Notes: a model not told the origin generated them from the letters alone. A stretch of DNA of 64,000 nucleotides from an uncultured Candidatus Saccharibacteria bacterium (GCA_964594755.1 CAZQMO010000002.1:9889-73888); one strand, 5' to 3'; shown: positions 8,757 through 62,473, counted from the first letter of the stretch. Made by a program: numbers and translations.

Positions 8757-9725
8757 CTATAATATTTCTTGACTTTTGTCTATGGAATGATGCAAATGAA
8801 CACTCAAATTTGGCTGGGCCAGCTTCACCCCAGGGGTTGATTGAGGAACTTTTTTAGCTTTAATTAGTTGGTCGAACCATAAAATCATAACAACATTAAA
8901 CCAAATATTATTTAAGAGTAACCAAAATAAAAACAAGGTACTAGCGACGATAGCTACTACCACTCGCCAAGCCGCTAATGCAGTAACTGGTAAAAAATAT
9001 TCTGGTGGCGTACTCAACAGTGCTGGCAACTGCCATAACACTGTACCCGCAGCTGCTACAGAAACTAAAAATACCGCTGTAGCCAAAATTGTAATACTTG
9101 CGATTGATCGAAACTTCAAGGCTATAGTATCTGCTGCCATGATTGCCGCTTTCGTCAAAGATTGTTGGTACCAAAAAATAAACAATACTGTAAATAAATT
9201 CCACCAAGAAATTAACACTAAAGCTACTAATACTGATAAAATCATCAGCATGGTTTTTAGCAGGCTATACTCACTGTGCAAAGAATAAATATGAAAACTG
9301 CCCAACACCATCGCCGTAGTCAAAGCAGTAAGAAAACTTGCACCGACTGTATGCCAAACAATATATTTTGCTTGCCAAAGATATTTGAAGATAGAGGTTT
9401 GCTTTAATTCAATACAAAGGGGGCACATGTCCTTGGTCACGTCATGTAAACCATTATGGACTAGCCCTAAAAACATCAGTTTACAGAAATTTACTACAAC
9501 AAAAGCAAAAGTGATTATTACCACTCCCAACAGAATTATCTGCACCGATGTAGTTGCAAAAAATTGGTCGCTGACCAGAATGAATAAATTGGTTTCTGAT
9601 AACCACTGCGCTGCGTACCAGGTATGCAAATTAAAGGCTGATGCTAAGAATATCCCAAACAGCCATAAACTTTTACGGTTTACGGTAATTTTGGTAGCTT
9701 GCAGAAAAATCTGTAATTTTGTCAT
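8757..9725 (-). CDS. Polytopic integral membrane protein, function unknown
   Basis: About 8 hydrophobic helices with no recognisable catalytic motif. The start lies directly downstream of tRNA-Val. Confidence 0.5.
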   Translation of the reverse strand: MTKLQIFLQATKITVNRKSLWLFGIFLASAFNLHTWYAAQWLSETNLFILVSDQFFATTSVQIILLGVVIITFAFVVVNFCKLMFLGLVHNGLHDVTKDMCPLCIELKQTSIFKYLWQAKYIVWHTVGASFLTALTTAMVLGSFHIYSLHSEYSLLKTMLMILSVLVALVLISWWNLFTVLFIFWYQQSLTKAAIMAADTIALKFRSIASITILATAVFLVSVAAAGTVLWQLPALLSTPPEYFLPVTALAAWRVVVAIVASTLFLFWLLLNNIWFNVVMILWFDQLIKAKKVPQSTPGVKLAQPNLSVHLHHSIDKSQEIL

Positions 9726-11842: not shown

Positions 11843-11927
11843 TGGTGGGCAAGGAGGGACTCGAACCCTCAATCCATTCGGAACTAGTTCCTAAGACTAG
11901 CGCGTATACCAATTCCGCCACTTGCCC
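11843..11927 (-). tRNA. tRNA-Leu (anticodon TAG), type II with a long variable arm
   Basis: Acceptor GGGCAAG/CTTGCCC, anticodon loop CTTAGGA, T-loop GGTTCGAGTCC, and an encoded CCA. Confidence 0.85.
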
Positions 11928-11990
11928 AGAAAAATAAAAGTAACCACTACTGGTTACTTATTATAATGAAATTTTAAATAAATTTCAAAC

Positions 11991-12779
11991 CTAAGTTCCT
12001 GACCCTTGAACCAGGAAATTAGTAACAATTTGGACTATCAAGAAGGACAGAATAACAATACCTAAACCAATCAAAGCATTTACCAAAGTCTTGCGACCAC
12101 TCAAAGCCCGAGCATCATTTCCAGCAGCAGTCATATAGTAATAACCGCCAATGATAATGAAGATAACTGCGATAATTCCAGCCAAATACAGGAGAATAGA
12201 AATAATGGCGACTGCTAATTGTCCAAGCGATCCTGAGCCAGCAATCCCTTGGTTGCCAGAGAAAGGGTTGTTAGGAATACACAGCGGTCCTTTTTGAACA
12301 CATCCTATAGTCCCGGATGTCGGAGGTTGCTGGGTTGGAGGAGTTTGGGTTGGTGGTTGTTGTGTGGGCGGAGTTTGAGTCGGTGGAGTTTGTGTTGGGG
12401 GTGTCTGGGTTGGAGGAGTTTGTGTAGGTGGAGGAGTGGTTCCATTTTGAGCTGGGCGAATAGTCTGCGGTGTAGTTCCGTTCTCACAAGTAAAGGTGCT
12501 ACTGGTGCCGCCAGAAGCTATTGGAGCTGCAATGTTGAATGAACCAGCAGTACCCACAACGCACATCACTGAGAATGTGCCTTGAACCGAACGCAATGTT
12601 GCTCCGGGTTGGCAAAAACCAGATGCTGGTACAAAATACACAGCGCCAGTTAAGTCATCCTGACAAACTGGCGTAGTTGTGCGACTACTACCTAACTGAG
12701 CATACACAGTACTCTTCACGTCTGCTGCCAAACTCAATGCAAGGGCCGCCAGGACTAAAAATAAGAATAATCGCTTCAT
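11991..12779 (-). CDS. Secreted/membrane protein with a Cys-containing ectodomain, a (PTQTP)n linker and a C-terminal TrbC/VirB2-like (T4SS-pilin-like) two-helix domain; paralog 1 of 7
   Basis: Signal peptide (LVLAALALSLAADV), a PTQTPPTQ linker, and the C-terminal motif IIGGYYYMTAAGNDARALSGRKTLVNALIGLGIVILSFLIV. Confidence 0.6.
   Translation of the reverse strand: MKRLFLFLVLAALALSLAADVKSTVYAQLGSSRTTTPVCQDDLTGAVYFVPASGFCQPGATLRSVQGTFSVMCVVGTAGSFNIAAPIASGGTSSTFTCENGTTPQTIRPAQNGTTPPPTQTPPTQTPPTQTPPTQTPPTQQPPTQTPPTQQPPTSGTIGCVQKGPLCIPNNPFSGNQGIAGSGSLGQLAVAIISILLYLAGIIAVIFIIIGGYYYMTAAGNDARALSGRKTLVNALIGLGIVILSFLIVQIVTNFLVQGSGT
12300..12430. repeat. Imperfect tandem repeat of about 15 bp that encodes the PTQTPP linker
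   Basis: ggtggagtttgggtt-like units are repeated about 8 times inside the 11991..12779 CDS. Confidence 0.7.
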
Positions 12780-12781
12780 AA

Positions 12782-13249
12782 TTAAGTGACAATAAACCTA
12801 TAAACAACTTGGACGATCATATATGAGAATACCACTATGACCAAGCCTATCAAGGCATTCACTAAAGTTTTCCGACCACTAGCAGCACGGGTATCATTAC
12901 CAGCAGCTGTTATATAATAATAACCACCTATAATAATAAAGATGATTGCAATAATCCCTGCGAGATACAATGCCCATTCTAGAACAGTCTTAACCAAAGA
13001 CTTCAAATCCTGCACTCCATCACCCTGTGCTCTTCCAGAAGGGTAAGCACCTTTAATATCTTCTAATCCACTCTGGATGCTATCTCCTCCAGAAGTTGGA
13101 GACTGAGCGGCCACAGATAAAGGCACAACCAAACTCATTGCTGCTATAGCAACCGCAACTAAAGATTTCGATAGAAGTTTATTCATATGGTCTTTAAGAT
13201 AATTCCGGAGAGAAAATAATAAAATTTTACCCCCGGAATTATCCCGCAT
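12782..13249 (-). CDS. TrbC/VirB2-like pilin-family protein; paralog 2 of 7
   Basis: Signal peptide, then the C-terminal motif IIGGYYYITAAGNDTRAASGRKTLVNALIGLVIVVFS. Confidence 0.6.
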   Translation of the reverse strand: MRDNSGGKILLFSLRNYLKDHMNKLLSKSLVAVAIAAMSLVVPLSVAAQSPTSGGDSIQSGLEDIKGAYPSGRAQGDGVQDLKSLVKTVLEWALYLAGIIAIIFIIIGGYYYITAAGNDTRAASGRKTLVNALIGLVIVVFSYMIVQVVYRFIVT

Positions 13250-13268
13250 CGATTAATGCGGGATAGAA

Positions 13269-13700
13269 CTAGCTTCCAAAAATACCACCACTGCCGCCGC
13301 CAGCCACAAAGTTGTAAACAATTTGTACAACTATGAATGACAACACAATAATGACGATACCTATCAAAGCGTTGAAGATCGCGGTACGACCTGCTTTAGC
13401 AGATTCCTCGTTACCGCCAGCAAGAATGTAGCGGAAACCACCATAGATCAAGAAGATAACCGCCAAGATGAAAGCAATACCTAATGCCCATTCTGCAACC
13501 GTTTTAAATAGGTCAGCAATATTGGTTTCACCACAACGAAAACCTTCTGGACACTCTATTTCATCCACTTGTTGTGGCTGAGCACCAACATAATTAGGAA
13601 CTACAACAACTAACGGCATCAAGGCAACCCCTAAAGCGGCTACTGCCAAAGCAATTGTTTTCCAAGAGAGTGTTAATGTTTGTTTCAAAATTCTCACCAC
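13269..13700 (-). CDS. TrbC/VirB2-like pilin-family protein; paralog 3 of 7
   Basis: C-terminal motif IYGGFRYILAGGNEESAKAGRTAIFNALIGIVIIVLSF. Confidence 0.55.
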   Translation of the reverse strand: MVRILKQTLTLSWKTIALAVAALGVALMPLVVVVPNYVGAQPQQVDEIECPEGFRCGETNIADLFKTVAEWALGIAFILAVIFLIYGGFRYILAGGNEESAKAGRTAIFNALIGIVIIVLSFIVVQIVYNFVAGGGSGGIFGS

Positions 13701-13807
13701 CTTTCTGCTTGCGCTGGAAAGCGCTGTCGCAAATGTGCGAGTTAGTTTAGAAAATCCACAAAATGTGGGAGATTCAATAAATTAATTATACTACACAAAC
13801 CGTAATT

Positions 13808-14254
13808 CTAGAAAACTTTGTTGTCAACAATAAGATTGATCACTGCACCTACGATCAAGGTAGCTAAGACTGCCACAACTATCCCAACTATCGTCCAGAT
13901 CAGTGTAAACTTCGCTTTTTTGAGTTGAGCTTCGTTATCGCGAGCGGTCATATACAGGTAGCCAGCATAGATTAGTGAAATCACTGCGACAATACCAATG
14001 ATGTAATACATAAAGCCAACAATTTTCGAATAAATGCTGACTGGGTCGCAATAGGCTGGCAACGCGGCTGCACTACCGCCACCATTACTGTTTATCAAAG
14101 CCCTAAGCCTTTCGCACTCTGCAGACTGGCTAGAGGTCTGCGCGCCTGCTGGCATAGGCACAGACAACAAACTGGAAAATAATAATGTGGCAAACAAAAA
14201 TTTTAAAGTGAAATTTTTCATATTAACTAATAATGGACTGAATAATTGCGACAA
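13808..14254 (-). CDS. TrbC/VirB2-like pilin-family protein; paralog 4 of 7
   Basis: C-terminal motif IYAGYLYMTARDNEAQLKKAKFTLIWTIVGIVVAVLATLIV. Confidence 0.55.
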   Translation of the reverse strand: MSQLFSPLLVNMKNFTLKFLFATLLFSSLLSVPMPAGAQTSSQSAECERLRALINSNGGGSAAALPAYCDPVSIYSKIVGFMYYIIGIVAVISLIYAGYLYMTARDNEAQLKKAKFTLIWTIVGIVVAVLATLIVGAVINLIVDNKVF

Positions 14255-15020
14255 TAGTAAGCGATAACAAGGTTACAATCAAACCAGCCACGGCATAGAT
14301 CAGAGTTTTCTTCCCTTGCTTCACCCGATCTTCATTCCCTGCTGACGTCACCATCATAAAACCACCAAGGATAATAAAGAGAACGGCTATGCTGGCTGCC
14401 AAAAACAAAAGGATGTTGATTATTCTTACTACGATGGCCTCGGGGCGAGTTACATCATCAAATAACGGATTAAAGAGTAGTGCCAAAGGGTTGTCAAAGT
14501 CAGTTTTATTCACATAACCAACACTCGCGGTTGAAGTAGAGGTTTTGTCAGTTGGTGGTGCAATGATTGGGGGTGTCTGTCCAGTTGGCTGACTACCTGT
14601 CCTTCCAGTAGTTCCATAATTGATTGTCACTACATCTTCAAATGCTATGCTCCTAAAATCATCAAAGGTTGTCTGTAGTTTCACTGTGTTCACACCTTGC
14701 TTCAGAACTGTTGAAGAAAAAGAAGTTCGATGTTCAATGTTACCAAACGAACTAGTCAAAGAAAAATTATCTGATTGGTTATTCCAAGAAAACAACATTC
14801 GAGCACTATTTCCACAAATAGTACTGGATCCAGGGGAAAACCTCGCAAACATTTCGATGGCCGCTGAAGAATATTTTATATTTAAAGTTTTACTACCGGA
14901 TGGAGCAGTCGGATGATACCCAAAAAAGGTTGGGGTACAGTTATTTGGAATAATTTGAGCTGTGGCAAAGTTTGGAACAAACAGGACCACTAGTACAAAA
15001 GCTAGTGTGTAGTTCTTCAT
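14223..15020 (-). CDS. TrbC/VirB2-like pilin-family protein with a larger ectodomain; paralog 5 of 7
   Basis: Signal peptide, then the C-terminal motif ILGGFMMVTSAGNEDRVKQGKKTLIYAVAGLIVTLLSL. Confidence 0.55.
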   Translation of the reverse strand: MKNYTLAFVLVVLFVPNFATAQIIPNNCTPTFFGYHPTAPSGSKTLNIKYSSAAIEMFARFSPGSSTICGNSARMLFSWNNQSDNFSLTSSFGNIEHRTSFSSTVLKQGVNTVKLQTTFDDFRSIAFEDVVTINYGTTGRTGSQPTGQTPPIIAPPTDKTSTSTASVGYVNKTDFDNPLALLFNPLFDDVTRPEAIVVRIINILLFLAASIAVLFIILGGFMMVTSAGNEDRVKQGKKTLIYAVAGLIVTLLSLTIVAIIQSIIS

Positions 15021-15421
15021 CCTAATACTCCGAAGACAATATTAACCAAGGCAAAAGCTCCTATCGAAACCACCAAACCAATGATTGCCCAGATTAATGT
15101 ATTCTTTGCTTGGGTGACACGTTTTTCGTTACCTGCATTAAAGACAAACATAACCCCAGCATACACAATCATAATAGTCGCTACCAGTGCAATTATTCCT
15201 AACAACCATAAAATTAATTTACCAATTACATCAGCAATATCATTTTTACCCGTGTTGTTTGTGATGGAAATTTTTCCATCCCAATCAAACTGGGTAGTTG
15301 GAGATGCTGTAGCTGTTGCTGTTGGAGATGGTTGTAGTTGTGCAGAAACTAAATGTGGGGCTATAACCGAACCAACAAACAATAAAGTCAGTATTTTTAT
15401 TTTAAATAGAGATTTTTTCAC
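15017..15421 (-). CDS. TrbC/VirB2-like pilin-family protein; paralog 6 of 7
   Basis: C-terminal motif VYAGVMFVFNAGNEKRVTQAKNTLIWAIIGLVVSIGAFALV. Confidence 0.55.
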   Translation of the reverse strand: MKKSLFKIKILTLLFVGSVIAPHLVSAQLQPSPTATATASPTTQFDWDGKISITNNTGKNDIADVIGKLILWLLGIIALVATIMIVYAGVMFVFNAGNEKRVTQAKNTLIWAIIGLVVSIGAFALVNIVFGVLG

Positions 15422-15423
15422 TT

Positions 15424-15966
15424 TTATTTGCCGTTATTAGTGGTATTTTCAATATAAGCTCTTGGATTGGTAAGAATGAGTCCGCCGTTTTTAAGGCCAA
15501 GGCTTAACGAACCAGCAATCAATGAATTTACTAGCACGAAAGCTAAACCGACTAAAGCCAGGCCAATGATAGCTCCGATTAATCTTTTCTTTGCCGCTGT
15601 GTACCACTCTTCCCCGCGAGACATAGTCATCTGAACACCGGCAATAACAATGAACAATAAGGCAACCAACCCAGCAACAGAAATTAAATAATTAATAATC
15701 ATGACCAGCACAATGAAGAGGTGGTCAATGGTGCAAGGTTCGCTAACTCTGTCACCACAGATTACAAATCCGCCTTGGCCTTGATTGTCTCTTACCTCTT
15801 GAGTGGTTGCCGGTGGCTTTAGAGTGGAAGACGGTTGAGCTTGGGCCAACACCTCTAAGGAATAAGTAGAAGATGCAACAAAACCACCGATCAAGATTAC
15901 TACAGCAGCAATTCCCAATAATAAGGGAGTAAATTTAGTTTTAAGGTTTTTACCGAAAATATCCAT
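15424..15966 (-). CDS. TrbC/VirB2-like pilin-family protein; paralog 7 of 7
   Basis: C-terminal motif VIAGVQMTMSRGEEWYTAAKKRLIGAIIGLALVGLAFVLV. Confidence 0.5.
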   Translation of the reverse strand: MDIFGKNLKTKFTPLLLGIAAVVILIGGFVASSTYSLEVLAQAQPSSTLKPPATTQEVRDNQGQGGFVICGDRVSEPCTIDHLFIVLVMIINYLISVAGLVALLFIVIAGVQMTMSRGEEWYTAAKKRLIGAIIGLALVGLAFVLVNSLIAGSLSLGLKNGGLILTNPRAYIENTTNNGK

Positions 15967-15967
15967 T

Positions 15968-17281
15968 TTAGAAAATTTGCTGTCTTACAATTGCGCCAGC
16001 CTGAGTCTGTGCTCTAGATAAAGCTTGTTGAACAGTTTGTCCGCCTCGCAATATGCCATTTACTACTTCAGTGAATAAATTATCATACTTCGCTTCGTCA
16101 TACTTAGGGAAAGATTTTGCAGTTAGGTTCGCATGAGCGAACACACCAATTTCCAAATCAGAAGTTTGTAACGAAATTAAATCACGACGACTGGATGGTT
16201 GTTTGTCTTTTGCATAGTAAGCATCTAGAGCTTGTTTACTAGTAGCAAACTTCAAGAAATCCCAAGCTGCTGCTTGTTCTGCCTTTGAAGACTGCTTACT
16301 CACAACTTCGGCAAAGTAGTTTGCATAATTCACACTTGGTCGACTTAGATCGTATTGTGGCACATTAGCTACATCGTAATTCAAGTTGGGGGCTTTAGCA
16401 TTAATCTGTGCGCGGGTGTAGCTATAGCCATAAAGATAAGCTGCTCGGCCATTGGCAAACGCATCAACAGAATAGTCGCTATTAGCGTTCCAGTTATAAT
16501 TTTCTTTAATCGGGTTAGCAAACGAGGTATAAAAATCTACACCAAGCACACCTGGATTAACACTCTGCCCATTTACTTGAACACTATTGGCAAATTGAGG
16601 ACTTCTGCCATCTGGGCTCCATGGGACTGCTCCAGCTTGAAGCATTAGTAGGTACATAATATCTTGGGCGCGATTAACATTGGAAACATCCCCCATAGCC
16701 ACACCGCTGCGTGTAAAATATCCTGATGAATCCTGGGTAGTAATCCTGCGAACATCACGAGCTAATTGATCCCAAGTTTTTGGTGGGGTCGCGATACCTG
16801 CCGTACCCATTATGTCCTTGTTATAATAGAGCGCCAAAGAATCTACCCACATTGCGGTACCATAAATTTTATTGTCACGAATTAAATCGTTTGAGACAAC
16901 ATCCACAAATTGTTCACGATAATCGCGGATAGTGTAGAGGGATTCTGGGGCTTCAGTAATTTTATCTAGGTATTGAGGAAGCCAGGTATTATTGATCGAA
17001 AAGATATCTGGACCACTACCTGCTGCTAACGCATTTAACAAATCACTTTCGTAATTTTCTATATTCTTTTTGGTGTACTCGATTGTGACATTAGGGTTAA
17101 CCTTCTTGTAAGCAGAAATAATGACATTCATCTTGTCGCTATCAACAAAAGGTTTCCACATTTCAATAGTCACTTTTTCTTTAGGGGGTTCCGGATTACA
17201 CGCCGCTCCAGTCATACTCAGAGCTAAAATTACAAATCCTAAAGTAATTTTTCGAAACATTGTTTTTTTATTTTTTGACAT
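15968..17281 (-). CDS. ABC transporter substrate-binding protein (family-1 extracellular solute-binding protein, sugar type); probable lipoprotein
   Basis: Signal peptide with a Cys (…SMTGAACNPEP). Its length and composition are typical of a carbohydrate substrate-binding protein. No permease or ATPase gene is adjacent. Confidence 0.65.
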   Translation of the reverse strand: MSKNKKTMFRKITLGFVILALSMTGAACNPEPPKEKVTIEMWKPFVDSDKMNVIISAYKKVNPNVTIEYTKKNIENYESDLLNALAAGSGPDIFSINNTWLPQYLDKITEAPESLYTIRDYREQFVDVVSNDLIRDNKIYGTAMWVDSLALYYNKDIMGTAGIATPPKTWDQLARDVRRITTQDSSGYFTRSGVAMGDVSNVNRAQDIMYLLMLQAGAVPWSPDGRSPQFANSVQVNGQSVNPGVLGVDFYTSFANPIKENYNWNANSDYSVDAFANGRAAYLYGYSYTRAQINAKAPNLNYDVANVPQYDLSRPSVNYANYFAEVVSKQSSKAEQAAAWDFLKFATSKQALDAYYAKDKQPSSRRDLISLQTSDLEIGVFAHANLTAKSFPKYDEAKYDNLFTEVVNGILRGGQTVQQALSRAQTQAGAIVRQQIF

Positions 17282-17291
17282 TTTTATATCT

Positions 17292-18188
17292 TTAAACTTT
17301 TAAATCTTTTAGGTACGATGCGAATTCATCGTGTAAATCATCATGTTTTAAGCCAAATTCTACTACTGCTTTTAAATATTCTAGCTTATTACCACAATCG
17401 TAGTACTTACCATTGTTGATTTCTACAGCAAAGCAGTCTTTATTCTGCTCTAAGAGAATATTAATAGCGTCCACATATACCAATTCCCCGGGGGTATTTT
17501 TTTGTTCGTGACGCTTCATCGCTTCTTCAAGTGCCGGGAAGAAATCTGGTGAGAGTAATAACCCAGAAACTACTGCGCAGTGCTCAGTCAGAAGTGGTTG
17601 CCCAGGTTTCTCAATCAGCTGTTCAATTTTTAGAGCTCCTTCACCTACGTTAGAACCTGATGCGTAACCGTAACGCTTGTAATCTTCGTCTGCAGTCGCA
17701 CTAATCCCTGCTAATATCGCACTACCACCTAACTGTTCATAACGCTCTACTAATTGTTGACTACGAGTTGGGCTTGCTTCAAAAACATCATCACCCCAAA
17801 GAACTAAAAACGGTTCACCACCAATAATCTGTCGAGCATTCCAAATCGGAGTCGCATTGCCAAGTGGACCTTTTTGGCGCACATAATAAAAATTGGCCAA
17901 GTTAGCAATTTTACGAATTTCCTCTAAAAGTTCATATTTTTGGGCTTCTTCCAAGCGCTTTTCTAATTCAAAGGGATAATCAAAGTGGTCTTCGATGTTA
18001 CGCTTATGCCAACCGGTAACTAAGATTATGTCTTCGATTCCTGCGGAAACGGCATCCTCAACCACATATTGAATGATTGGCTTATCAACCAAAGGAAGCA
18101 TCTCCTTGGGTTGGGCTTTTGTAGCAGGAAGGAATCTTGTCCCAAAACCTGCGACAGGAATAACCGCTTTACGAACTTTCTTGCTCAT
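17292..18188 (-). CDS. galU: UTP--glucose-1-phosphate uridylyltransferase
   Basis: N-terminal motif VIPVAGFGTRFLPATKAQPKEMLPLVDKPIIQYVVEDA. Confidence 0.9.
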   Translation of the reverse strand: MSKKVRKAVIPVAGFGTRFLPATKAQPKEMLPLVDKPIIQYVVEDAVSAGIEDIILVTGWHKRNIEDHFDYPFELEKRLEEAQKYELLEEIRKIANLANFYYVRQKGPLGNATPIWNARQIIGGEPFLVLWGDDVFEASPTRSQQLVERYEQLGGSAILAGISATADEDYKRYGYASGSNVGEGALKIEQLIEKPGQPLLTEHCAVVSGLLLSPDFFPALEEAMKRHEQKNTPGELVYVDAINILLEQNKDCFAVEINNGKYYDCGNKLEYLKAVVEFGLKHDDLHDEFASYLKDLKV

Positions 18189-28495: not shown

Positions 28496-28525
28496 AGACC
28501 CCACTTACCAGTGGGGTCTAATTTT
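28496..28525. terminator. Bidirectional rho-independent terminator (serves the mazG-like and hsp20 genes)
   Basis: agaccccac-ttacca-gtggggtct hairpin with A/T runs on both sides. Confidence 0.65.
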
Positions 28526-29153
28526 ATAATCCTTTAACTTTAACTTTCTTAGTTTTTGCCTTGGCGGCTTTTGGAATTACTACGGTAAGAATTCCGTCTT
28601 TAAGATCAGCCTCTATCTGTTCGCTATCAATATCTACTGGAACAATCACTGAACGGGAAAACCCTCCCCAATAACATTCTTGATAAAAGTAATCATCATC
28701 AGAAATTTTTTCTTCGCGCTTACGTGAACCATTGATGGTGACCATGTCGTTAGCCACAGTGATATCAATATCATCAGGGCGAACACCAGCGATAGTTGAT
28801 TTAATTATCACGTTATCTTTGGTTTGATACATATCGATGTTCAGTGCACCTTCGTAGTCAGTCATCCAGTCTTCATCTTGTTTGGAGATTGGTGTAGAAA
28901 CTGCAGCAGGTTTTGCCACTGGTTCTGGTTCAGACTCTTCCTCTTCTTCTTCACTCTCATCATCTTCGTATTCAAGTTCTTCTTCCTCTTCATCGGCTAG
29001 GTACTGATCATCATCTTCAAGTTCTTCTTCAGCCAGCTCTTCTTGATAAACTGCCTGTTCTTGAGGAACCTCTTCTTGATAGTATTCTTCTTGGGCTTCG
29101 GCAACCTCGCCACCCATAATCTTGCCAAAGAAGGATTGTTTTTGTCGGGCCAT
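28524..29153 (-). CDS. Hsp20/alpha-crystallin small heat-shock protein with a polyacidic N-terminal extension
   Basis: C-terminal alpha-crystallin domain (…ITVANDMVTINGSRKREEKISDDDYFYQE…GILTVVIPK); the N-terminal ~90 residues are E/D-rich. Confidence 0.85.
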   Translation of the reverse strand: MARQKQSFFGKIMGGEVAEAQEEYYQEEVPQEQAVYQEELAEEELEDDDQYLADEEEEELEYEDDESEEEEEESEPEPVAKPAAVSTPISKQDEDWMTDYEGALNIDMYQTKDNVIIKSTIAGVRPDDIDITVANDMVTINGSRKREEKISDDDYFYQECYWGGFSRSVIVPVDIDSEQIEADLKDGILTVVIPKAAKAKTKKVKVKGL

Positions 29154-30804: not shown

Positions 30805-30894
<90 letters not shown>

Positions 30895-32903: not shown

Positions 32904-34286
32904 TTGTCAAATATTATGATGATTTCTGCTGAATTTGTCAATTTTAATGATTCACGGGAAACAATTTTCGCCAAACTACAAAAATATTGCCTGTTTGGGA
33001 TGATTGTCTTTATTTTTTTGCCTTTTCCCTACTTTATAGACACATATGGTTCAACCATTCTGGAATATGCCAATGATTTTACATCAATCGTCATATTCCC
33101 AAGCTTAGCAATGGTAATGGGACTGTTGATCATAGAATTATATCAATCGCTCAAAAATTCACGATATTTCTATAACTTCTACATTTTTTGGCTTATTTAC
33201 AGTGCTTTTTGGTTATCCTACCACGTGGCAGTTAATAGTCCAGAAAGTGCAATCATTACTTATTATGCTATAAAAATTCTCTGTGCATTAACTGTGGGTT
33301 ACTATGTTTATAAATCCAACTTTTGGCTTAAATATAGGGATTATTTGTTGTGGGTAATTATTGTCCTTGGATCTGTTAATGCTCTTTTGGCTGGCTTCCA
33401 TTTTCTACTAGGTAATTCAATTGGTCTACATCTTGTTGGTGAGTCTCCTCTATCAATCGAGGGGAACAATATTGCCAAACTGGTTGCACATGGAACTTTA
33501 TACCTCAGAGGTTATGGTCTTATGCCACATCCGAATATCTTAGCTGGTATCCTCATTACCATTACTTCACTTAACTTATATTTACTTAACAAATACCAAA
33601 AATCCGTATTGGAGATATTACTCTATACTACCTTATTTATCATAATCTCTGGCGTATTCTTTAGTTTTTCACGTGCTGGAATTTTAGCGCTAATTATAGT
33701 CCTTACCACGTGGGGAGTTTACTCTCTAAAAATCTGGTCTAAGGCTGTAGGCTTCAGCATTATCTCTGCACTGATTTGGATTATAGTGCTAAGTTCAGTG
33801 CTTTGGCCTTGGCTGTCTGGCCGAGCAACGTTAGCTGATCCAGCTGTCGAAGAACGGGTCATCTTAAACGAAGCAACTGTTGAAGTCCTGACGGAAAATT
33901 GGCTTACAGGTACCGGACCAGGGACTAACATTATTGTGCTTCACGAGAAACTTTCAGGGCAAGTTGAAGACTGGGTCATCCAACCGGTTCACAATTATAT
34001 TTTGATCACACTATCTGATTTAGGAATTTTTGGTTATCTCTTATTAATTCCGATCCTGGCTATTGCTATGATGGCTATAATAAAATTTATTGATTCAGAA
34101 TCACCGTCACTTTGGCTCACCGCCTTATTAGCTTCAGTCGTGGGGATGGTATTTCTGTTTTGGTTCGATCACTATTTCTATACTTACTGGCCTGCGCAAC
34201 TCTGGCTGTGGCTAATCCTGGGGATGACAGCCAAAGAAGTCTGGGAAAGAATTTACATAGCTAAACTGTTTCATGGGAAACAATAG
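32904..34286 (+). CDS. O-antigen ligase/polymerase-like (Wzy_C family) polytopic membrane protein
   Basis: About 11 TM helices, a FSFSRAG motif within a large loop, and a GTGPGT sequence. Confidence 0.65.
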   Translation: MSNIMMISAEFVNFNDSRETIFAKLQKYCLFGMIVFIFLPFPYFIDTYGSTILEYANDFTSIVIFPSLAMVMGLLIIELYQSLKNSRYFYNFYIFWLIYSAFWLSYHVAVNSPESAIITYYAIKILCALTVGYYVYKSNFWLKYRDYLLWVIIVLGSVNALLAGFHFLLGNSIGLHLVGESPLSIEGNNIAKLVAHGTLYLRGYGLMPHPNILAGILITITSLNLYLLNKYQKSVLEILLYTTLFIIISGVFFSFSRAGILALIIVLTTWGVYSLKIWSKAVGFSIISALIWIIVLSSVLWPWLSGRATLADPAVEERVILNEATVEVLTENWLTGTGPGTNIIVLHEKLSGQVEDWVIQPVHNYILITLSDLGIFGYLLLIPILAIAMMAIIKFIDSESPSLWLTALLASVVGMVFLFWFDHYFYTYWPAQLWLWLILGMTAKEVWERIYIAKLFHGKQ

Positions 34287-57645: not shown

Positions 57646-58116
57646 TTAAATCTTCATAACTATTTTTCTGTTGGGTTCCTCGCCTTCACTTGAGGTTGTA
57701 ATGTGGGGGAATTGTTCCTGAATGTAGGAGTGAACAAATTTACGCTCGTATCTACTCATTGCGGGTAATCTGATTAGTTCATTTGAATACTTTAGCTTTT
57801 GCACTGCGTCTTTAACTTGTTGTTTTAAAAGAAACTCTCTTTGGGAGCGATAGTTATCAATATCAATGGTAAAATGAACCGGCTCTGAGCTACTACTAAA
57901 ATGCCGGTTTACTATAGCAAACACAATGGTTTGCAGTGCTTGCAAATTAGCTCCTTGTTTACCAATAAGTAGCTTAGGTGAGTCAGTTGAAATGTTGAAC
58001 ACTAAGCCTTTGGAAATGCTCTGCTCATATTGAACTCGTGCTTTAAACCCAGCTGTTGTTAGAAGCTTGGTAATAACCTCCTGAATATATTCAATTGCTT
58101 GATAATCAGTTTCCAT
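57646..58116 (-). CDS. jag: RNA-binding protein Jag/KhpB (KH plus R3H domains)
   Basis: KH-like segment GKQGANLQALQ, a C-terminal R3H segment (ELIRLPAMSRYERKFVH), and its position after yidC. Confidence 0.8.
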   Translation of the reverse strand: METDYQAIEYIQEVITKLLTTAGFKARVQYEQSISKGLVFNISTDSPKLLIGKQGANLQALQTIVFAIVNRHFSSSSEPVHFTIDIDNYRSQREFLLKQQVKDAVQKLKYSNELIRLPAMSRYERKFVHSYIQEQFPHITTSSEGEEPNRKIVMKI

Positions 58117-58849
58117 GTTCTATCGATTCTAAAGCTTCTTTGGGTTTATAGGTTTTTTGGATATAAAATTGTTGACCAACTGCGAATAAGGTAGTCACAA
58201 TCCAATATAAAGGTAGTCCGGCAGGTAAGGTCCACGCAATTACCACAGAAATAATTGGTAAGATATAAGTCATCTGCAAGTTCATCATTTTGGTAGTAGC
58301 ATCATTATTACTATTATTACCCTGCCATTTAATAATCATGTGAGATTGCCAATATTGCGCTAGGCCGGCCAAGATAGCAAAAATAAAGTTTGGCTCAGAA
58401 AGATTGATCATTCCTAAGAAATTTGGATCGATTGTTCCTGGGTTAGGTACAAAACTATACAAACCCTCTAAACTATTTCCTAATGCTTTCCGAAATACAT
58501 GGAAAAGCGCTAGTAAAATTGGGAGTTGTAGCAACACCGGCAAACAAGAAGACAAGGGGTTTACGTTATGCTCTTTATACAAATCAAGCATTGCTTTAGC
58601 CTGAGCCTCACGATCATCCTTATACTTTTCGCGGAGTTCATTCATTTTTGGCTGAAGTGCACTCAAAGCTCTTTGACCTTTAAGTGATTTGTTCATTAAA
58701 GGTGCTAAAATTATTCGGATAATAATTGTTACCACAATAATGACTAACCCAATATCTGGAATTGGGGAAATATCATACAACCAAACCAAAAGGTTTAAGA
58801 TTGGTCGGTAAATTGCTTCATTGTATGCTGAGAAAATAAAATCAAACAT
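58106..58849 (-). CDS. yidC: Membrane protein insertase YidC (short form)
   Basis: YidC/Oxa1 core helices, 247 aa, in the rnpA–yidD–yidC–jag operon context. Confidence 0.9.
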   Translation of the reverse strand: MFDFIFSAYNEAIYRPILNLLVWLYDISPIPDIGLVIIVVTIIIRIILAPLMNKSLKGQRALSALQPKMNELREKYKDDREAQAKAMLDLYKEHNVNPLSSCLPVLLQLPILLALFHVFRKALGNSLEGLYSFVPNPGTIDPNFLGMINLSEPNFIFAILAGLAQYWQSHMIIKWQGNNSNNDATTKMMNLQMTYILPIISVVIAWTLPAGLPLYWIVTTLFAVGQQFYIQKTYKPKEALESIEHGN

Positions 58850-58852
58850 AAT

Positions 58853-59083
58853 TTAAGGTTTATCTATTTGTGGCTGCACAAAAGGATTGCATTTAATAAT
58901 TCTTTTTAATGAGAGGATGGAACCCTTTAGGATTCCATGATTTCTGAGCGATTGAATAGCATACTCACTACAGGTAGGGTAGAAACGGCAAAATCCATAG
59001 GGATAACGGTATTTTAACCAACTGTGATCAGGGGATAAAGTTTTTTGATAAAGCTTTATTAAGTTTATCAGAAGGAATTTCAT
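58853..59083 (-). CDS. yidD: Membrane protein insertion efficiency factor YidD
   Basis: YPYGFCRFYPTCSEYA signature. Confidence 0.9.
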   Translation of the reverse strand: MKFLLINLIKLYQKTLSPDHSWLKYRYPYGFCRFYPTCSEYAIQSLRNHGILKGSILSLKRIIKCNPFVQPQIDKP

Positions 59084-59421
59084 AATAAAATCTTACTTTT
59101 TATTAGAGAAGTTTTTACTTCTGCGCTCAAATCTTTGCTTGTAACTAAAATCGCTGATCGCTTTACTATTATGGCATATTTGCCGGGTTTCATCTTGTCT
59201 AAGTAATGTCTCACTGCTTCTCGAATTACTCTCTTTATACGATTTCTTACTACTGCACTTTTTGAAATCTTGTTTGATACTACTACGGTAAATTTAGCTT
59301 TCTCTGCCTTTGGGTCAATAATGGTCTTCAAAATAAAAGAACTACTAAAAAAACCCCGCCCCCGTGCTGTGGTTGAAACAACTTCAGCTTGTTTAGAGAG
59401 ACGGTGTTTTTTTGGAATCAT
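59080..59421 (-). CDS. rnpA: Ribonuclease P protein component
   Basis: Basic RnpA motifs (KRLSKQAEV…RNRIKRVIREAVR); overlaps the yidD start. Confidence 0.9.
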   Translation of the reverse strand: MIPKKHRLSKQAEVVSTTARGRGFFSSSFILKTIIDPKAEKAKFTVVVSNKISKSAVVRNRIKRVIREAVRHYLDKMKPGKYAIIVKRSAILVTSKDLSAEVKTSLIKSKILL

Positions 59422-59433
59422 AATCTAAATTGT

Positions 59434-59568
59434 TTAAACAGTTAGTTTTTTGCGGCCTTTTTGGCGGCGGCGAGCTAGAGTAGCGCGCCCTGTCCTGGTT
59501 TGCATCTTTTTACGAAATCCGTGGACTCTGGCTCTTTTCTTAGTTTTTGGCTGATAAGTTCTTTTCAT
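59434..59568 (-). CDS. rpmH: 50S ribosomal protein L34
   Basis: By-eye translation gives [44 protein letters not shown]. The ORF is only 44 aa, so it is not in the track. Confidence 0.9.
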
Positions 59569-59803
59569 ATAGATTCAATATTTCTGATTACCATGGAATT
59601 ATAGGGAAATTTTTTAAATAAGTCAATGACATGGCTTGTTAAAATTATCTGTGATAAAACTTATTCATAAACCACAGGTTGTCCACAAGATATACACAAC
59701 AGTTGATAAATTTGGCTTATTTAAGGTTATTTTATATTAGTTTTACATGTTGATAAAGTGGTTGGTAGAATAGAACTATTGTATTTTAACTTTTCGCTAA
59801 TCT
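59569..59803. promoter_or_regulatory. Candidate oriC part 1 (rpmH–dnaA intergenic region): AT-rich with DnaA-box-like 9-mers
   Basis: ttgtccaca, tgtgataaa (complement of tttatcaca), ttgataaat and ttgataaag, set in AT-rich sequence. Confidence 0.55.
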
Positions 59804-61168
59804 ATGGATAATCAAAAATTATGGCAGGCCATGCTTGGATCTTTGGAGATTAATCTAAGTAAGGGTAATTTTATTACCTGGTTTAAAAATACGGGGATTA
59901 TCGAAAAAAATAATGATTATATTGTCGTTGGTGTGCCAAGCAATTTTGCCCACGAATGGATCAAAAATAAATTTCATAACCACCTCTTAAAGTCTTTAAA
60001 AACTATTGCTCCCGAAGTTAGAGAAATTAAATACCATATTGGCAGCCTAAAGACTGCTGCTGAAAAGCAAGGCTCCCTACTTCAGGAATCAGAAACTAAT
60101 GAAAAAAATACGGTTGTATATAAAACCGTTGGTACCAACCCTAGCAACTCTCTAAACAAGCAATACACATTTGAGACTTTTATTATTGGACAAAACAATG
60201 AATTAGCTCATGCCGCCAGTATTGCTGTAAGTAAAAATCCTGGAGCACAATATAATCCATTGTTTATCTATGGTGGTGTTGGTCTTGGAAAAACCCATTT
60301 AATCCATGCTGTGGGTAATAAGTTGCTAGCAAATAACCCCAGAGCGCGAGTATTGTATGCCACTAGTGAAAAATTCACTAATGATTTCATTAACGCTATC
60401 CAACAGAAAAAGTTGGATGATTTTAAAAAACAATACCGTCAAGTTGATATGCTACTCATTGATGATGTTCAATTTATTGCCGGTAAAGAACAAACCCAAG
60501 AAGAATTTTTTCACACCTTCAACGAGTTAAGAGATAAGGGTAAACAAATAATTCTAACTTCTGACCGATTACCAAAAGATATTCCTGCGATTGAACAAAG
60601 ATTAATATCGAGGTTTGAGTGGGGAATGATTGCTGATGTCGGAGCTCCTAGTTTAGAAACCAGAATTGCTATTCTAAAAACTAAGTTAGCAAAAATGGGT
60701 TCTAATTTTGATGATGAAATTATTAATTATATCGCTGAAAATGTCGTTAATAATATCAGAGAATTAGAAGGTGCTCTAAATAAGATTGTAGTATTCCAAG
60801 ATATGGGTAGAGAACCTTTAACTTTAGTAAAAGTTCAGGAATTATTGCAAAGTATCACAAATAATAATAAACGAAAGAATGTCTCTATTAAAAAAATTGC
60901 TGAAAATGTAGCAGGTTTCTATAGTGTGACTTTAGACGATTTAATTAAACAGTCTCGAAAGAAAGAATATGTAAAACCGCGTCAGGCTGCCATGTATCTT
61001 GTTAGAAAAGAGTTAAATAGTTCTTTCCCTACAATTGGTGAATTTTTTGGGGGTAGAGACCATACAACAGTTATGCATGGAGTAGAGAAAGTTGAGAGAG
61101 CTGTAAATTCTGAAGATCAAATTAAGAAAGAATTAGAGTTAATTATTGAGCGAATCTATAACACTTAA
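59804..61168 (+). CDS. dnaA: Chromosomal replication initiator protein DnaA
   Basis: AAA+ motif (GGVGLGKTHLIHAVG) and the DnaA box-binding domain IV (…GGRDHTTVMHGVEKVE). Confidence 0.97.
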   Translation: MDNQKLWQAMLGSLEINLSKGNFITWFKNTGIIEKNNDYIVVGVPSNFAHEWIKNKFHNHLLKSLKTIAPEVREIKYHIGSLKTAAEKQGSLLQESETNEKNTVVYKTVGTNPSNSLNKQYTFETFIIGQNNELAHAASIAVSKNPGAQYNPLFIYGGVGLGKTHLIHAVGNKLLANNPRARVLYATSEKFTNDFINAIQQKKLDDFKKQYRQVDMLLIDDVQFIAGKEQTQEEFFHTFNELRDKGKQIILTSDRLPKDIPAIEQRLISRFEWGMIADVGAPSLETRIAILKTKLAKMGSNFDDEIINYIAENVVNNIRELEGALNKIVVFQDMGREPLTLVKVQELLQSITNNNKRKNVSIKKIAENVAGFYSVTLDDLIKQSRKKEYVKPRQAAMYLVRKELNSSFPTIGEFFGGRDHTTVMHGVEKVERAVNSEDQIKKELELIIERIYNT

Positions 61169-61376
61169 CATGTTTATAAACTTGTTGATATAGTTGGGAT
61201 AAGATTGGGATAAAAATTTATATAAAATATTTATCAACAAATCTTACGGACTTATCCAAATTTTTATCAAGAAGTTATTAACACCGCTCTTACAGAATTA
61301 TTAAATGAAATCAGTTGGTTTAGTCACTTACCAACAAATCCACACCCCTTACTACAACTACTAAGTATTTAAATAT
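61169..61376. promoter_or_regulatory. Candidate oriC part 2 (dnaA–dnaN intergenic region): AT-rich with several DnaA-box-like sequences
   Basis: ttatccaaa, gggataaga and gggataaaa (complements of TTATCC cores), aatccacac, and tttatcaac. Confidence 0.6.
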
Positions 61377-62471: not shown

Positions 62472-62473
62472 TT

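What the first reader, a model, noticed from the sequence alone, without database searches (positions are those of the whole stretch)
11991..15966. Tandem array of seven divergent paralogs that share a TrbC/VirB2-like two-helix C-terminal domain
Seven consecutive minus-strand genes each encode a signal peptide, a different ectodomain, and a conserved C-terminal module of about 70 aa. The ectodomains are 134–265 aa long; one is Cys-containing with a (PTQTP)n linker. The C-terminal module is two hydrophobic helices joined by the loop [GA]G..Y.T.AGN[DE].R...G[RK]KTL…IGL.IV. This architecture (long signal peptide, two transmembrane helices, a short basic loop) resembles conjugative/T4SS pilins of the TrbC/VirB2 type. 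Here, however, the pilin-like module appears to act as a C-terminal anchor for variable, probably surface-exposed, domains. Seven diversified copies in a row, directly next to an orphan sugar-binding lipoprotein and galU, suggests one of two things. It could be a variable surface-display or adhesin repertoire, possibly for host-cell attachment, which would fit the CPR-like gene content of the window. Or it could be a multi-subunit pilus with specialised minor pilins. I see no T4SS ATPase or core component in this window, so the module may work independently of a canonical T4SS.
Basis: partly seen in the sequence, partly recalled or inferred. Interest (0 to 1): 0.8.

Follow-up and report, generated by a model that had tools for sequence, protein, structure and literature searches.

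The report
Seven tandem VirB2-like pilin genes
Seven neighbouring genes in a Saccharibacteria-like (CPR) genome encode divergent type IV secretion pilins; such arrays are already described in these tiny epibiotic bacteria, but this one sits in a conserved operon with a sugar-binding lipoprotein, not next to the secretion machine.

Summary
Window 11991-15966 (minus strand) holds seven back-to-back genes. Each encodes an N-terminal signal peptide, a variable region and a C-terminal two-helix hairpin. All seven pass the curated cut-off of Pfam PF18895 (T4SS_pilin), and one also passes TrbC/VirB2.

Arrays of 2-11 divergent VirB2-like pilins are already published for Patescibacteria (McLean 2020; Wang 2023, where the array is essential in Southlakia; Quinonero-Coronel 2025, 441 arrays). 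The kind is therefore known.

What I add:
1. The seven genes are ancient positional orthologues, not a fast-turnover repertoire.
2. Two short pilins are conserved; the others carry ectodomains that evolve about 4.5 times faster than the hairpin, and one ectodomain is swapped outright in a close relative.
3. This array is not beside T4SS core genes. It lies in a galU / SBP-lipoprotein / pilin operon that recurs in Saccharibacteria and Magasanikbacteria with different flanks. I found no description of this context in the papers I could search.

Most likely mechanism: a heteromeric T4SS-type filament with core subunits and adhesin-bearing subunits. No step of assembly has been shown.

The parts
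17292..18188 (-). galU-like UTP-glucose-1-phosphate uridylyltransferase, the first gene of the conserved module
   Evidence: Pfam NTP_transferase. NCBIfam TIGR01099 galU scores 264 bits, below its cut-off of 326.8. It ends 10 nt before the SBP start. It lies upstream of SBP plus pilins in 4 of 5 pilin-anchored loci with enough sequence.
15968..17281 (-). Family-1 solute-binding (MalE/trehalose-maltose type) lipoprotein, a conserved partner of the array
   Evidence: Pfam SBP_bac_1 and SBP_bac_8. Best solved relatives are sugar SBPs. A lipobox Cys is present in 17 of 19 orthologues. Its stop codon is 1 nt from the first pilin start. Among galU loci, pilins follow the SBP directly in 15 of the 16 loci with downstream sequence, and in none of the 62 loci without the SBP.
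15424..15966 (-). Pilin position 1 (180 aa): Cys pair before helix 1 and a conserved C-terminal tail of about 30 aa
   Evidence: PF18895 39.3 bits. Groups with L007_1, L003_1 and L006_1.
15017..15421 (-). Pilin position 2 (134 aa) with a T/P/S-rich N-terminal linker
   Evidence: PF18895 44.5 bits. NF045849 43.5 bits, above its cut-off of 40.
14223..15020 (-). Pilin position 3 (265 aa) with an ectodomain of about 166 aa (2 Cys, strand-rich in a low-confidence model) and a T/P-rich linker
   Evidence: PF18895 32.6 bits. The ectodomain is replaced by an FN3-like domain in a relative that is 90% identical over the hairpin. The AF2 model of the ectodomain has pLDDT below 50.
13808..14221 (-). Pilin position 4 (137 aa from ATG 14221; the ORF listing starts at TTG 14254)
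   Evidence: PF18895 47.1 bits and TrbC/VirB2 30.2 bits, above its cut-off of 27.9. AF2 gives a helical hairpin at residues 60-92 and 97-133, mean pLDDT 77.
13785..13790 (-). Conserved -10-like box (TATAAT within TAGTATAAT) in the 107-nt gap before position 5; putative internal promoter
   Evidence: The box is near-invariant in the alignment of the same gap from L086, L003, L006 and L007. A conserved GAAAGGTGGTGA ribosome-binding site lies downstream. Inferred, not tested.
13269..13700 (-). Pilin position 5 (143 aa), the most conserved subunit and a candidate shaft pilin
   Evidence: PF18895 42.0 bits. 88% identical to the L086 orthologue and 55-76% in the hairpin across four genomes.
12782..13249 (-). 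Pilin position 6 (155 aa as an ORF, 134 aa from ATG 13186), a conserved subunit
   Evidence: PF18895 42.7 bits. 86% identical to the L086 orthologue.
11991..12779 (-). Pilin position 7 (262 aa): a 6-Cys ectodomain, a (PTQTP)n linker and a conserved GPLC[IV]PNNPF neck
   Evidence: PF18895 27.3 bits. Repeat DNA at 12331-12433. The neck motif is shared with the last pilin of the arrays in L003, L004, L006 and L007 (L004_5, the others at position 7).
11938..11959 (-). Terminator-like hairpin that closes the operon, just before tRNA-Leu (11843-11927)
   Evidence: Pattern scan only. tRNA.

Best explanation
The seven genes encode VirB2/TrbC-superfamily pilins (Pfam T4SS_pilin) of the type IV secretion-like apparatus of a Saccharibacteria-like patescibacterium.

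Proposed pathway (all steps inferred):
1. Each protein is exported by Sec and its signal peptide is removed. All seven have Ala-Gln just after the N-terminal hydrophobic segment.
2. It is parked in the membrane as a helical hairpin, with both termini outside and a short basic loop in the cytoplasm.
3. A VirB4-containing machine encoded elsewhere in the genome extracts the hairpins and polymerises them into a mixed surface filament or conduit that reaches the host bacterium.

The subunits are specialised. Positions 5 and 6 are short and conserved, and probably build the shaft. Together with position 7, they have their own promoter-like element. Positions 1-4 and 7 carry fast-evolving, disulfide-containing or linker-tethered ectodomains on the exposed terminus, and probably act as adhesive or tip subunits that match host surfaces.

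The co-transcribed solute-binding lipoprotein is a dedicated partner, for example a glycan-binding accessory of the fibre. galU may supply UDP-glucose for glycosylation of the S/T/P-rich linkers. Both roles are speculation.

Shown here: family membership, predicted topology features, positional orthology, the divergence pattern, and the conserved operon. Inferred: processing, polymerisation, dependence on a T4SS, and the roles of the SBP and GalU.
For: Family membership:
- All 7 pass the PF18895 cut-off; 1 passes TrbC/VirB2 and 3 more are just below it.
- NF045849, a pilin-like conjugal transfer protein family, is the top NCBIfam hit for all 7 and is passed by one.

Topology features:
- Three hydrophobic segments per protein and a basic inter-helix loop.
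- AF2 predicts a confident helical hairpin.

Link to a T4SS in relatives:
- Homologous arrays of 6-9 pilins sit directly beside VirB4 (P-loop_TraG/AAA_10) and a sub-threshold PrgI-like match (24.6 vs 27 bits).
- In Southlakia the same layout occurs, and all six pilin genes are scored essential.

Specialised subunits:
- The NJ tree groups the pilins by array position, not by genome. All seven window pilins have their best L007 match at the same position.
- Against the close relative L086, identities are FtsH 96%, SMC 95% and SBP 89%. The hairpins pooled are 83% identical (dN 0.12) and the ectodomains 46% (dN 0.54). Positions 5 and 6 are 88% and 86% identical overall.
- The ectodomain is swapped at 90% hairpin identity.
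- Extra domains occur on either terminus: a Cys-rich C-terminal extension of about 370 aa in L013 and L017. This fits both ends being outside the cell.

Operon:
- Gene gaps of -4 to 19 nt, except one 107-nt gap that holds a conserved -10-like box.
- The SBP-pilin association is 15 of 16 loci against 0 of 62, across Saccharibacteria and Magasanikbacteria with different flanking genes.
Against: - No VirB4, VirB6, PrgI or coupling protein lies in the 64-kb window or within 10 kb of any galU/SBP-type array I fetched. Dependence on a T4SS is therefore assumed, not seen.
- No pilus has been shown for any patescibacterial or monoderm T4SS.
- Foldseek against the PDB gave nothing significant. The best E-value was 1.5; the Aeropyrum conjugation pilus 8dfu ranked 4th at E 1.8.
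- A profile search of PDB sequences found no pilin.
- Pilins of the galU/SBP-type arrays cluster apart from those of T4SS-linked arrays, so they could belong to a separate system.
- Essentiality of the upstream Southlakia pilin genes could partly reflect polar effects (my caveat).
Confidence: 0.6

Rival explanations
1. T4SS-independent surface display. The pilin-like hairpin is only a two-helix membrane anchor that presents variable ectodomains, together with the SBP lipoprotein, on the cell surface. There is no polymerisation and no link to a secretion machine.
For: - The array is remote from any T4SS gene.
- It is instead locked to a lipoprotein and galU across CPR classes.
- Its pilins form a clade apart from T4SS-linked pilins.
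- Large Ig/FN3-like, peptidoglycan-binding and Cys-rich domains are fused to either terminus.
- No pilus is known in monoderm T4SSs.
Against: - The hairpin, including its cytoplasmic loop motif, is the best-conserved part (83% against 46%). That is more than a passive anchor needs.
- Five of the seven proteins have only 14-34 exported residues before helix 1, so there is little to display.
- The family as a whole is tied to VirB4 clusters and is essential there.
Confidence: 0.22
2. Interchangeable variant pilins. The paralogues are alternative major subunits that broaden host range or evade recognition, as proposed for the VirB2 paralogues of Anaplasma and Bartonella.
For: - The idea is put forward for CPR arrays in the 2025 survey.
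- The ectodomains evolve fast and can be swapped.
- A repeat-encoded linker could vary in length.
Against: - The seven are ancient orthogroups kept in fixed order. Position-specific neck motifs are conserved.
- The operon is tight, which implies co-expression.
- Each of the six Southlakia pilin genes is scored essential, so they are not redundant.
- I did not search for switching elements such as inverted repeats or silent cassettes.
Confidence: 0.12
3. Sec-exported toxin or effector subunits released through the T4SS, by analogy with pertussis toxin (the 2020 reading of the TM7x array).
For: McLean 2020 drew this analogy from the signal peptides and the position of the array next to T4SS genes.
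Against: - Every protein ends in two long hydrophobic helices and matches pilin HMMs.
- None has a lipobox in its signal peptide (read from the sequences).
- No toxin domain was detected.
Confidence: 0.03

Closest known systems
VirB2-like pilin arrays of Patescibacteria (Southlakia epibionticum SEML1_0014-0019; the TM7x 'Sec-secreted array'; the 441 arrays of Quinonero-Coronel et al. 2025)
   Same: - Same Pfam family (PF18895).
- Tandem sets of 2-11 divergent paralogues. The published mean identity is 25% and the maximum 54%. Here the full-length values are 23-52% to the first sequence, and 19-64% within the hairpin.
- Same layout of signal peptide plus hairpin, and the same host group.
   Different: - The published examples lie inside the T4SS cluster (VirB4, PrgI, a protein of about 1000 aa; then the pilins; then Hsp20), near dnaA.
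- This array is about 44 kb from dnaA and has no T4SS gene nearby. It is co-operonic with galU and an SBP lipoprotein. The Southlakia annotation table has no PF01547 entry, and its galU is not next to pilins.
- Two members carry ectodomains of about 150-166 aa.
- Its pilins cluster apart from the T4SS-linked ones.
TrbC/VirB2 conjugative pilins of Gram-negative T4SSs (Agrobacterium VirB2, RP4 TrbC, F TraA)
   Same: - A long signal peptide followed by two hydrophobic helices joined by a short basic loop.
- One member passes the PF04956 cut-off and three more score E 2e-5 to 3e-5.
- Ala-Gln at the predicted cleavage site, as at VirB2 Ala47/Gln48 (recalled from memory, not tested).
   Different: - The host is a monoderm with no outer-membrane core complex.
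- Seven paralogues instead of one major pilin.
- Large N-terminal (elsewhere C-terminal) ectodomains.
- Cyclisation or acetylation is unknown.
- The structural match to solved pili is not significant.
Tandem VirB2 paralogues of Anaplasma and Bartonella
   Same: Several divergent virB2 copies in a row, proposed to diversify the exposed surface (cited).
   Different: Those are short pilins in diderm pathogens of animals and are thought to be variants of one role. Here positional orthology and unequal conservation point to distinct roles.
Mbov_0395 / MMCAP2_0565 pilin-like conjugal transfer protein of Mycoplasma ICEs (NCBIfam NF045849)
   Same: It is the best NCBIfam hit for all seven, and one passes the cut-off. 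It is also a wall-less or monoderm setting with an MPF-FATA-type T4SS.
   Different: It is a single gene within a mobile element. Six of the seven proteins here are below the cut-off. This locus is chromosomal housekeeping context with no relaxase.
Archaeal Ced/Ted conjugation-like pili (Aeropyrum pernix, PDB 8dfu)
   Same: A helical-hairpin pilin of a VirB2-like fold in an organism without an outer membrane. It ranked 4th in the fold search (TM 0.63 normalised to the target).
   Different: E 1.8, not significant. No sequence-level match.
Sulfolobus bindosome (sugar-binding proteins assembled by a pilus-type system). An analogy recalled from memory, not tested.
   Same: Solute-binding proteins are genetically and physically tied to a pilin-type surface assembly.
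   Different: That system uses type IV pilin-like signal peptides on the SBPs themselves. Here the SBP is a lipoprotein and the pilins are of T4SS type.

Membership tests
Pfam PF18895 T4SS_pilin | Whole-protein score at or above the gathering cut-off (26.6 bits) | tested here: met
   Scores are 27.3, 42.7, 42.0, 47.1, 32.6, 44.5 and 39.3 bits. All 7 pass, the first only narrowly.
Pfam PF04956 TrbC/VirB2 | Score at or above the gathering cut-off (27.9 bits) | tested here: inconclusive
   One of seven passes (30.2 bits). Three score 24.6-25.1 bits, one 10.8, and two have no hit. This indicates a superfamily-level relation, not membership for all seven.
NCBIfam NF045849 Mbov_0395 pilin-like conjugal transfer protein | Score at or above 40 bits | tested here: not met
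   Only position 2 passes (43.5 bits). The others score 17-39 bits.
VirB2-type conjugative pilin (functional class) | Cleavable N-terminal signal peptide followed by two hydrophobic helices joined by a short basic loop | tested here: met
   Three hydrophobic segments in each protein. The loop contains R/K. Ala-Gln lies after the first hydrophobic segment in 7 of 7. AF2 predicts a hairpin. Cleavage itself is only predicted.
VirB2-type conjugative pilin (functional class) | Encoded with, and assembled by, a VirB4-containing T4SS | tested here: not met
   There is no VirB4, VirB6, PrgI or T4CP in the 64-kb window (the FtsK here has alpha, gamma and 4TM domains and is a true FtsK). Homologous arrays elsewhere are adjacent to VirB4.
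VirB2-type conjugative pilin (functional class) | Polymerises into a lipid-containing helical pilus | not testable with these tools
   This needs multimer modelling or cryo-EM. It has not been shown for any patescibacterium.
VirB2-type conjugative pilin (functional class) | Fold similarity to solved T4SS pilins | tested here: inconclusive
   Foldseek against the PDB gave a best E of 1.5, with 8dfu ranked 4th at E 1.8. A bare helical hairpin carries little signal.
Patescibacterial VirB2 array (Quinonero-Coronel 2025) | 2-11 pilin genes in tandem, highly divergent (mean about 25%, maximum 54% identity) | tested here: met
   Seven genes. Full-length identity to the first sequence is 23-52%. Hairpin identity is 19-64%.
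Patescibacterial VirB2 array (Quinonero-Coronel 2025) | Located near virB4 (the survey examined -20 to +20 CDS around virB4) | tested here: inconclusive
   None within 48 kb on one side. On the other side only about 12 kb (about 10 CDS) is visible before the window ends.
ABC-transporter solute-binding protein, family 1 (the neighbouring gene) | SBP_bac_1 domain together with cognate permease and ATPase genes | tested here: not met
   The domain is present, but no BPD_transp or ABC ATPase was found among the window ORFs scanned. In all related loci the SBP is followed by pilins, not permeases.

The most novel reading that the evidence does not exclude
The galU / SBP-lipoprotein / pilin operon is a second, previously undescribed class of patescibacterial pilin system. 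It is evolutionarily separate from the T4SS-cluster arrays and conserved from Saccharibacteria to Magasanikbacteria. It builds a glycan-sensing adhesive fibre or 'bindosome-like' surface organelle. In this organelle, VirB2-fold subunits serve as a scaffold for swappable adhesin domains and a tethered sugar-binding protein, possibly without needing the canonical VirB4 machine.
Probability: 0.2. Interest if true: 0.75.

Novelty: new variant of a known kind. Interest (0 to 1): 0.5.

Why it matters
The T4SS and its pilin array are among the few systems shown to be essential for the epibiotic life of Saccharibacteria. What the array builds, and how it recognises hosts, is still unknown.

This locus gives three concrete handles:
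- A division of labour between conserved 'core' pilins and pilins that carry fast-evolving, swappable ectodomains. No PrgB-type adhesin was found in the 2025 Patescibacteria survey, so these ectodomains could supply that function.
- A conserved sugar-binding lipoprotein partner, which suggests a ligand class to test.
- A clear split between T4SS-linked and SBP-linked arrays, which can be used to ask whether all such pilins depend on VirB4.

If the SBP-linked arrays prove to be a separate organelle, that would add a new surface structure to CPR biology. If not, this is one more instance of a published feature.

Tried and rejected
- Structure of the large ectodomain (position 3): the AF2 model has pLDDT below 50 across residues 15-176, so I ran no fold search on it.
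- Fold search of the small pilin against the PDB: nothing significant.
- Profile search of PDB sequences: only chance antibody hits at E above 0.5.
I report only dN and identity.
- Recovering the source contig (113,804 bp, NCBI) to look for VirB4: exact-match look-ups returned only short Logan contigs, and the cluster look-up gave no accession. One kilobase beyond recF holds a ManC-like gene, not the T4SS cluster that follows recF in Southlakia.
It was repeated with the three closest.
- I considered that genes upstream of galU in the Magasanikbacteria loci might be T4SS core genes. They are type IV pilus-like pseudopilins, TrmB and a sortase.
- I considered the window's FtsK as a coupling protein. 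It has the full FtsK alpha/gamma/4TM architecture.
- I ran no further search on VirB4. The top-120 limit made it unlikely to reach this genome.

Full report
**1. What is there**

Window 11991-15966 holds seven consecutive minus-strand ORFs of 180, 134, 265, 148, 143, 155 and 262 aa, listed in transcription order. I number them positions 1 to 7 in that order.

Each protein has an N-terminal hydrophobic segment and two long C-terminal hydrophobic segments. The C-terminal 80 residues or so align across all seven. The inter-helix loop follows the pattern [GA]G-x4-5-[TLFM]-x-[AGR]-[GD]-N-[DE]-x6-[GA]-[KR]. An HMM built from this module finds these seven ORFs and nothing else in the six-frame ORFs of the window.

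The genes are tightly packed. Gaps are 1, 2, -4, about 1, 107, 19 and 2 nt, starting from the stop of the upstream gene. A terminator-like hairpin lies just before tRNA-Leu.

- '134-265 aa' is the length of the whole proteins. The exported N-terminal regions are 14-34 aa in five proteins and about 150-166 aa in positions 3 and 7.
- Five of the seven, not one, have paired Cys in the exported part.
- The (PTQTP)n linker is real and is encoded by an imperfect 15-nt repeat at 12331-12433.

**2. Family**

[quoted passage not shown] Position 4 also passes TrbC/VirB2 (PF04956), and three others fall just short. The top NCBIfam hit for all seven is the Mycoplasma ICE pilin-like conjugal transfer protein NF045849, and one of them passes it.

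AF2 predicts a confident helical hairpin for position 4, at residues 60-92 and 97-133 with pLDDT around 90 there. The fold search against the PDB was not significant. The best E-value was 1.5, and the Aeropyrum conjugation pilus ranked 4th at E 1.8. A profile search of PDB sequences found no pilin. The family assignment therefore rests on sequence profiles. The structural test is inconclusive, as expected for a bare hairpin.

**3. Organism and surroundings**

The closest galU loci in the species-level genome collection are Saccharibacteria or Patescibacteria MAGs.

The window is ordinary chromosome. It carries SMC, RNase III, FtsH, ComM/YifB, LspA, RecA, RodZ, FtsK, IF-2, GyrA, PBP1, TyrRS, YidC and dnaA-dnaN-recF, with dnaA-recF at 59.8-63.6 kb. 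There is no VirB4, VirB6, PrgI-like protein or coupling protein. The FtsK has the full alpha/gamma/4TM architecture. tblastn with T4SS core proteins from a related locus finds nothing in the window.

I could not reach the rest of the 113.8-kb source contig.

**4. Already known**

- McLean et al. 2020 described an array of 4-6 small Sec-signal proteins in the T4SS region of TM7x and other CPR.
- Wang et al. 2023 showed that the Southlakia T4SS cluster (SEML1_0006-0019) contains six PF18895 pilins, all scored essential.
- Quinonero-Coronel et al. 2025 reported 441 VirB2 arrays of 2-11 genes in 383 assemblies. Mean identity was 25% and the maximum 54%. Arrays were most abundant in Saccharimonadia and Microgenomatia.
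- A 2025 review calls these systems unique among monoderm T4SSs.

The array in this window fits that description.

**5. What the comparison adds**

(a) *Positional orthology.* Related Saccharibacteria-like loci (L003, L006, L007, L086) carry seven pilins in the same place, and L004 carries five. In an NJ tree of the hairpins the proteins group by position, not by genome. All seven window pilins find their best L007 match at the same position. Position-specific neck motifs are conserved, for example GGFV.CG....PC at position 1 and GPLC[IV]PNNPF at position 7. This is a stable set of differentiated subunits, not a rapidly turning-over repertoire.

(b) *Unequal constraint.* The table compares the window with the close relative L086.

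| Protein or region | Identity to L086 |
|---|---|
| FtsH | 96% |
| SMC | 95% |
| RNase III | 92% |
| SBP | 89% |
| Pilin positions 1 to 7 | 67, 52, 46, 66, 88, 86, 61% |
| Hairpins, pooled | 83% (dN 0.12) |
| Ectodomains, pooled | 46% (dN 0.54) |

dS is saturated, so dN/dS is not usable. More distant orthologues show the same pattern, with ectodomain lengths changing from 34 to 178 aa and from 166 to 278 aa.

(c) *Domain swapping.* A protein that is 90% identical to position 3 over the last 98 residues has an FN3-like (PF16656) N-terminus instead of the window's 2-Cys domain. Other relatives carry fn3, both domains together, or a peptidoglycan-binding domain. In Magasanikbacteria, a pilin located a little downstream of the main tandem run carries a Cys-rich extension of about 370 aa on its C-terminus. 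Extra domains on either end fit a topology with both termini outside.

(d) *Internal promoter.* The only sizeable gap (107 nt, before position 5) contains a -10-like TAGTATAAT box that is near-invariant across five genomes, plus a conserved ribosome-binding site. This suggests separate, possibly higher, expression of positions 5-7, which include the two conserved pilins.

**6. The neighbours are partners**

The gene upstream is a family-1 solute-binding protein. Its nearest solved relatives are trehalose/maltose and other sugar binders. A lipobox Cys is present in 17 of 19 orthologues. Its stop codon is 1 nt from the first pilin start. galU precedes it by 10 nt.

Among 79 galU-anchored loci from one genome per species, 17 have this SBP directly after galU. 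Pilins follow the SBP in 15 of the 16 loci that have downstream sequence. The exception, L005, has a split SBP. None of the 62 loci without the SBP has pilins after galU.

The carriers include Saccharibacteria and Magasanikbacteria. Their genes on either side differ: type IV pilus pseudopilins and TrmB, against ComM and FtsH.

In an independent, pilin-anchored metagenome sample, arrays fall into two contexts:
- *SBP-linked.* Eight loci. galU lies further upstream in four of the five with enough sequence.
- *T4SS-linked.* VirB4, a 287-aa protein, a PrgI-like protein and a protein of about 1000 aa are transcribed divergently. Then come 6-9 pilins, then Hsp20. This is the Southlakia layout.

No T4SS core gene lies within 10 kb of any SBP-linked array. 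In an unbootstrapped NJ tree on about 80 residues, SBP-linked pilins cluster apart from the T4SS-linked positional groups. The Southlakia annotation table has no PF01547 protein, and its galU is not next to pilins. I found no paper in the searchable library that links galU or an SBP to these arrays. The 2025 survey looked only at the neighbourhood of virB4.

**7. Mechanism**

The most likely pathway is as follows:
1. The proteins are exported by Sec.
2. The signal peptide is cleaved. Ala-Gln follows the hydrophobic segment in 7 of 7 window pilins, 22 of 32 in close relatives, and only 6 of 52 in T4SS-linked arrays.
3. The proteins are stored in the membrane as hairpins.
4. A VirB4-type machine encoded elsewhere assembles them into a mixed filament.

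In this model positions 5 and 6 form the shaft. The ectodomain-bearing subunits provide contact with the host. This would fill the gap left by the absence of PrgB-type adhesins in Patescibacteria. The SBP lipoprotein would be an accessory, possibly glycan-binding. GalU may supply UDP-glucose for glycosylation of the S/T/P linkers.

Only family membership, topology features, orthology, the divergence pattern and the operon conservation are shown. Everything about assembly is inference, and no patescibacterial pilus has yet been seen.

The main rival is that SBP-linked arrays are a T4SS-independent display system. The alternatives of antigenic-type variants or toxin-like secreted subunits fit the data poorly.

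**8. Verdict**

This is a genuine feature, correctly recognised as VirB2/TrbC-like, and it belongs to a published kind. The SBP/galU-coupled context, the split into core and variable subunits, and the modular ectodomains make it a variant worth a specialist's attention. It is not a categorical novelty.

Noticed in passing
window 15968-18188; loci L003, L004, L006, L007, L013, L015, L017, L018, L022, L034, L046, L067, L076, L086, L094, L098, L099, L109: galU, then an SBP lipoprotein, then a pilin array form a conserved module across Saccharibacteria and Magasanikbacteria, with different flanking genes in each. Among galU loci, pilins follow the SBP in 15 of 16 loci and never occur after galU without it (0 of 62).
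   Followed up: yes
L112, L128, L132, L138, L147-L149, L158, L161, L166 (for example L128:622-10249): A second array context matches Southlakia. VirB4, a 287-aa protein, a PrgI-like protein and a protein of about 1000 aa lie on one strand; 6-9 pilins lie on the other strand; an Hsp20 gene follows. VirB4 is 72-86% identical among these loci. The third pilin is characteristically short (90-103 aa).
   Followed up: partly
L013:17732-19216 and L017:18873-20303: The Magasanikbacteria arrays are followed, after a gap or an intervening gene, by a pilin whose hairpin is N-terminal and is followed by a very Cys-rich extension of about 370 aa. No Pfam match beyond T4SS_pilin.
   Followed up: partly
L005:7770-9081: This is the one galU locus where the SBP is not followed by pilins, and here the SBP is split into two ORFs (184 and 256 aa). 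It could be co-decay of SBP and array, or a frameshift error in a long-read MAG.
   Followed up: no
window 13701-13807: The 107-nt gap between the fourth and fifth pilin genes holds a conserved -10-like box (13785-13790). In the window and L086 only, it also holds a small hairpin, CCACATTTTGTGG, followed by a T-rich run (13756-13768).
   Followed up: partly
window 8757-9725: A 322-aa polytopic membrane protein with no Pfam or NCBIfam match. It always follows FtsH in the related Saccharibacteria loci. It evolves fast: 61% identity to L086, against 96% for FtsH.
   Followed up: no
window 57646-63574: jag, yidC, then dnaA, dnaN and recF, with a low-GC stretch (0.34-0.35) around 58-62 kb. The replication origin is probably near 59-59.8 kb, about 44 kb from the pilin array. 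In Southlakia the T4SS cluster follows recF; here a ManC-like nucleotidyltransferase does (63606 onward; L085).
   Followed up: partly
window 43865-44515: A 216-aa protein with an SLT lytic transglycosylase domain. It could be a VirB1-like wall-opening enzyme or a general cell-wall enzyme.
   Followed up: no
window 28524-29153, 30805-30894 and 32904-34286: Hsp20, tRNA-Ser and a Wzy_C (O-antigen ligase-like) gene occur close together, as do SEML1_0020, 0022 and 0023 next to the Southlakia pilin array. Here there are no pilins beside Hsp20, which hints at a rearrangement between lineages.
   Followed up: no
window 11991-15966 and related arrays: Ala-Gln directly after the signal-peptide hydrophobic segment occurs in 7 of 7 window pilins, 22 of 32 in close relatives, and only 6 of 52 pilins of T4SS-linked arrays. 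A mature N-terminal Gln may be a feature of the SBP-linked class.
   Followed up: partly
L015, L017, L076: These records are titled 'uncultured Gammaproteobacteria', but they carry galU-SBP-pilin arrays and gene content like the Magasanikbacteria loci. The taxonomic labels look wrong.
   Followed up: no
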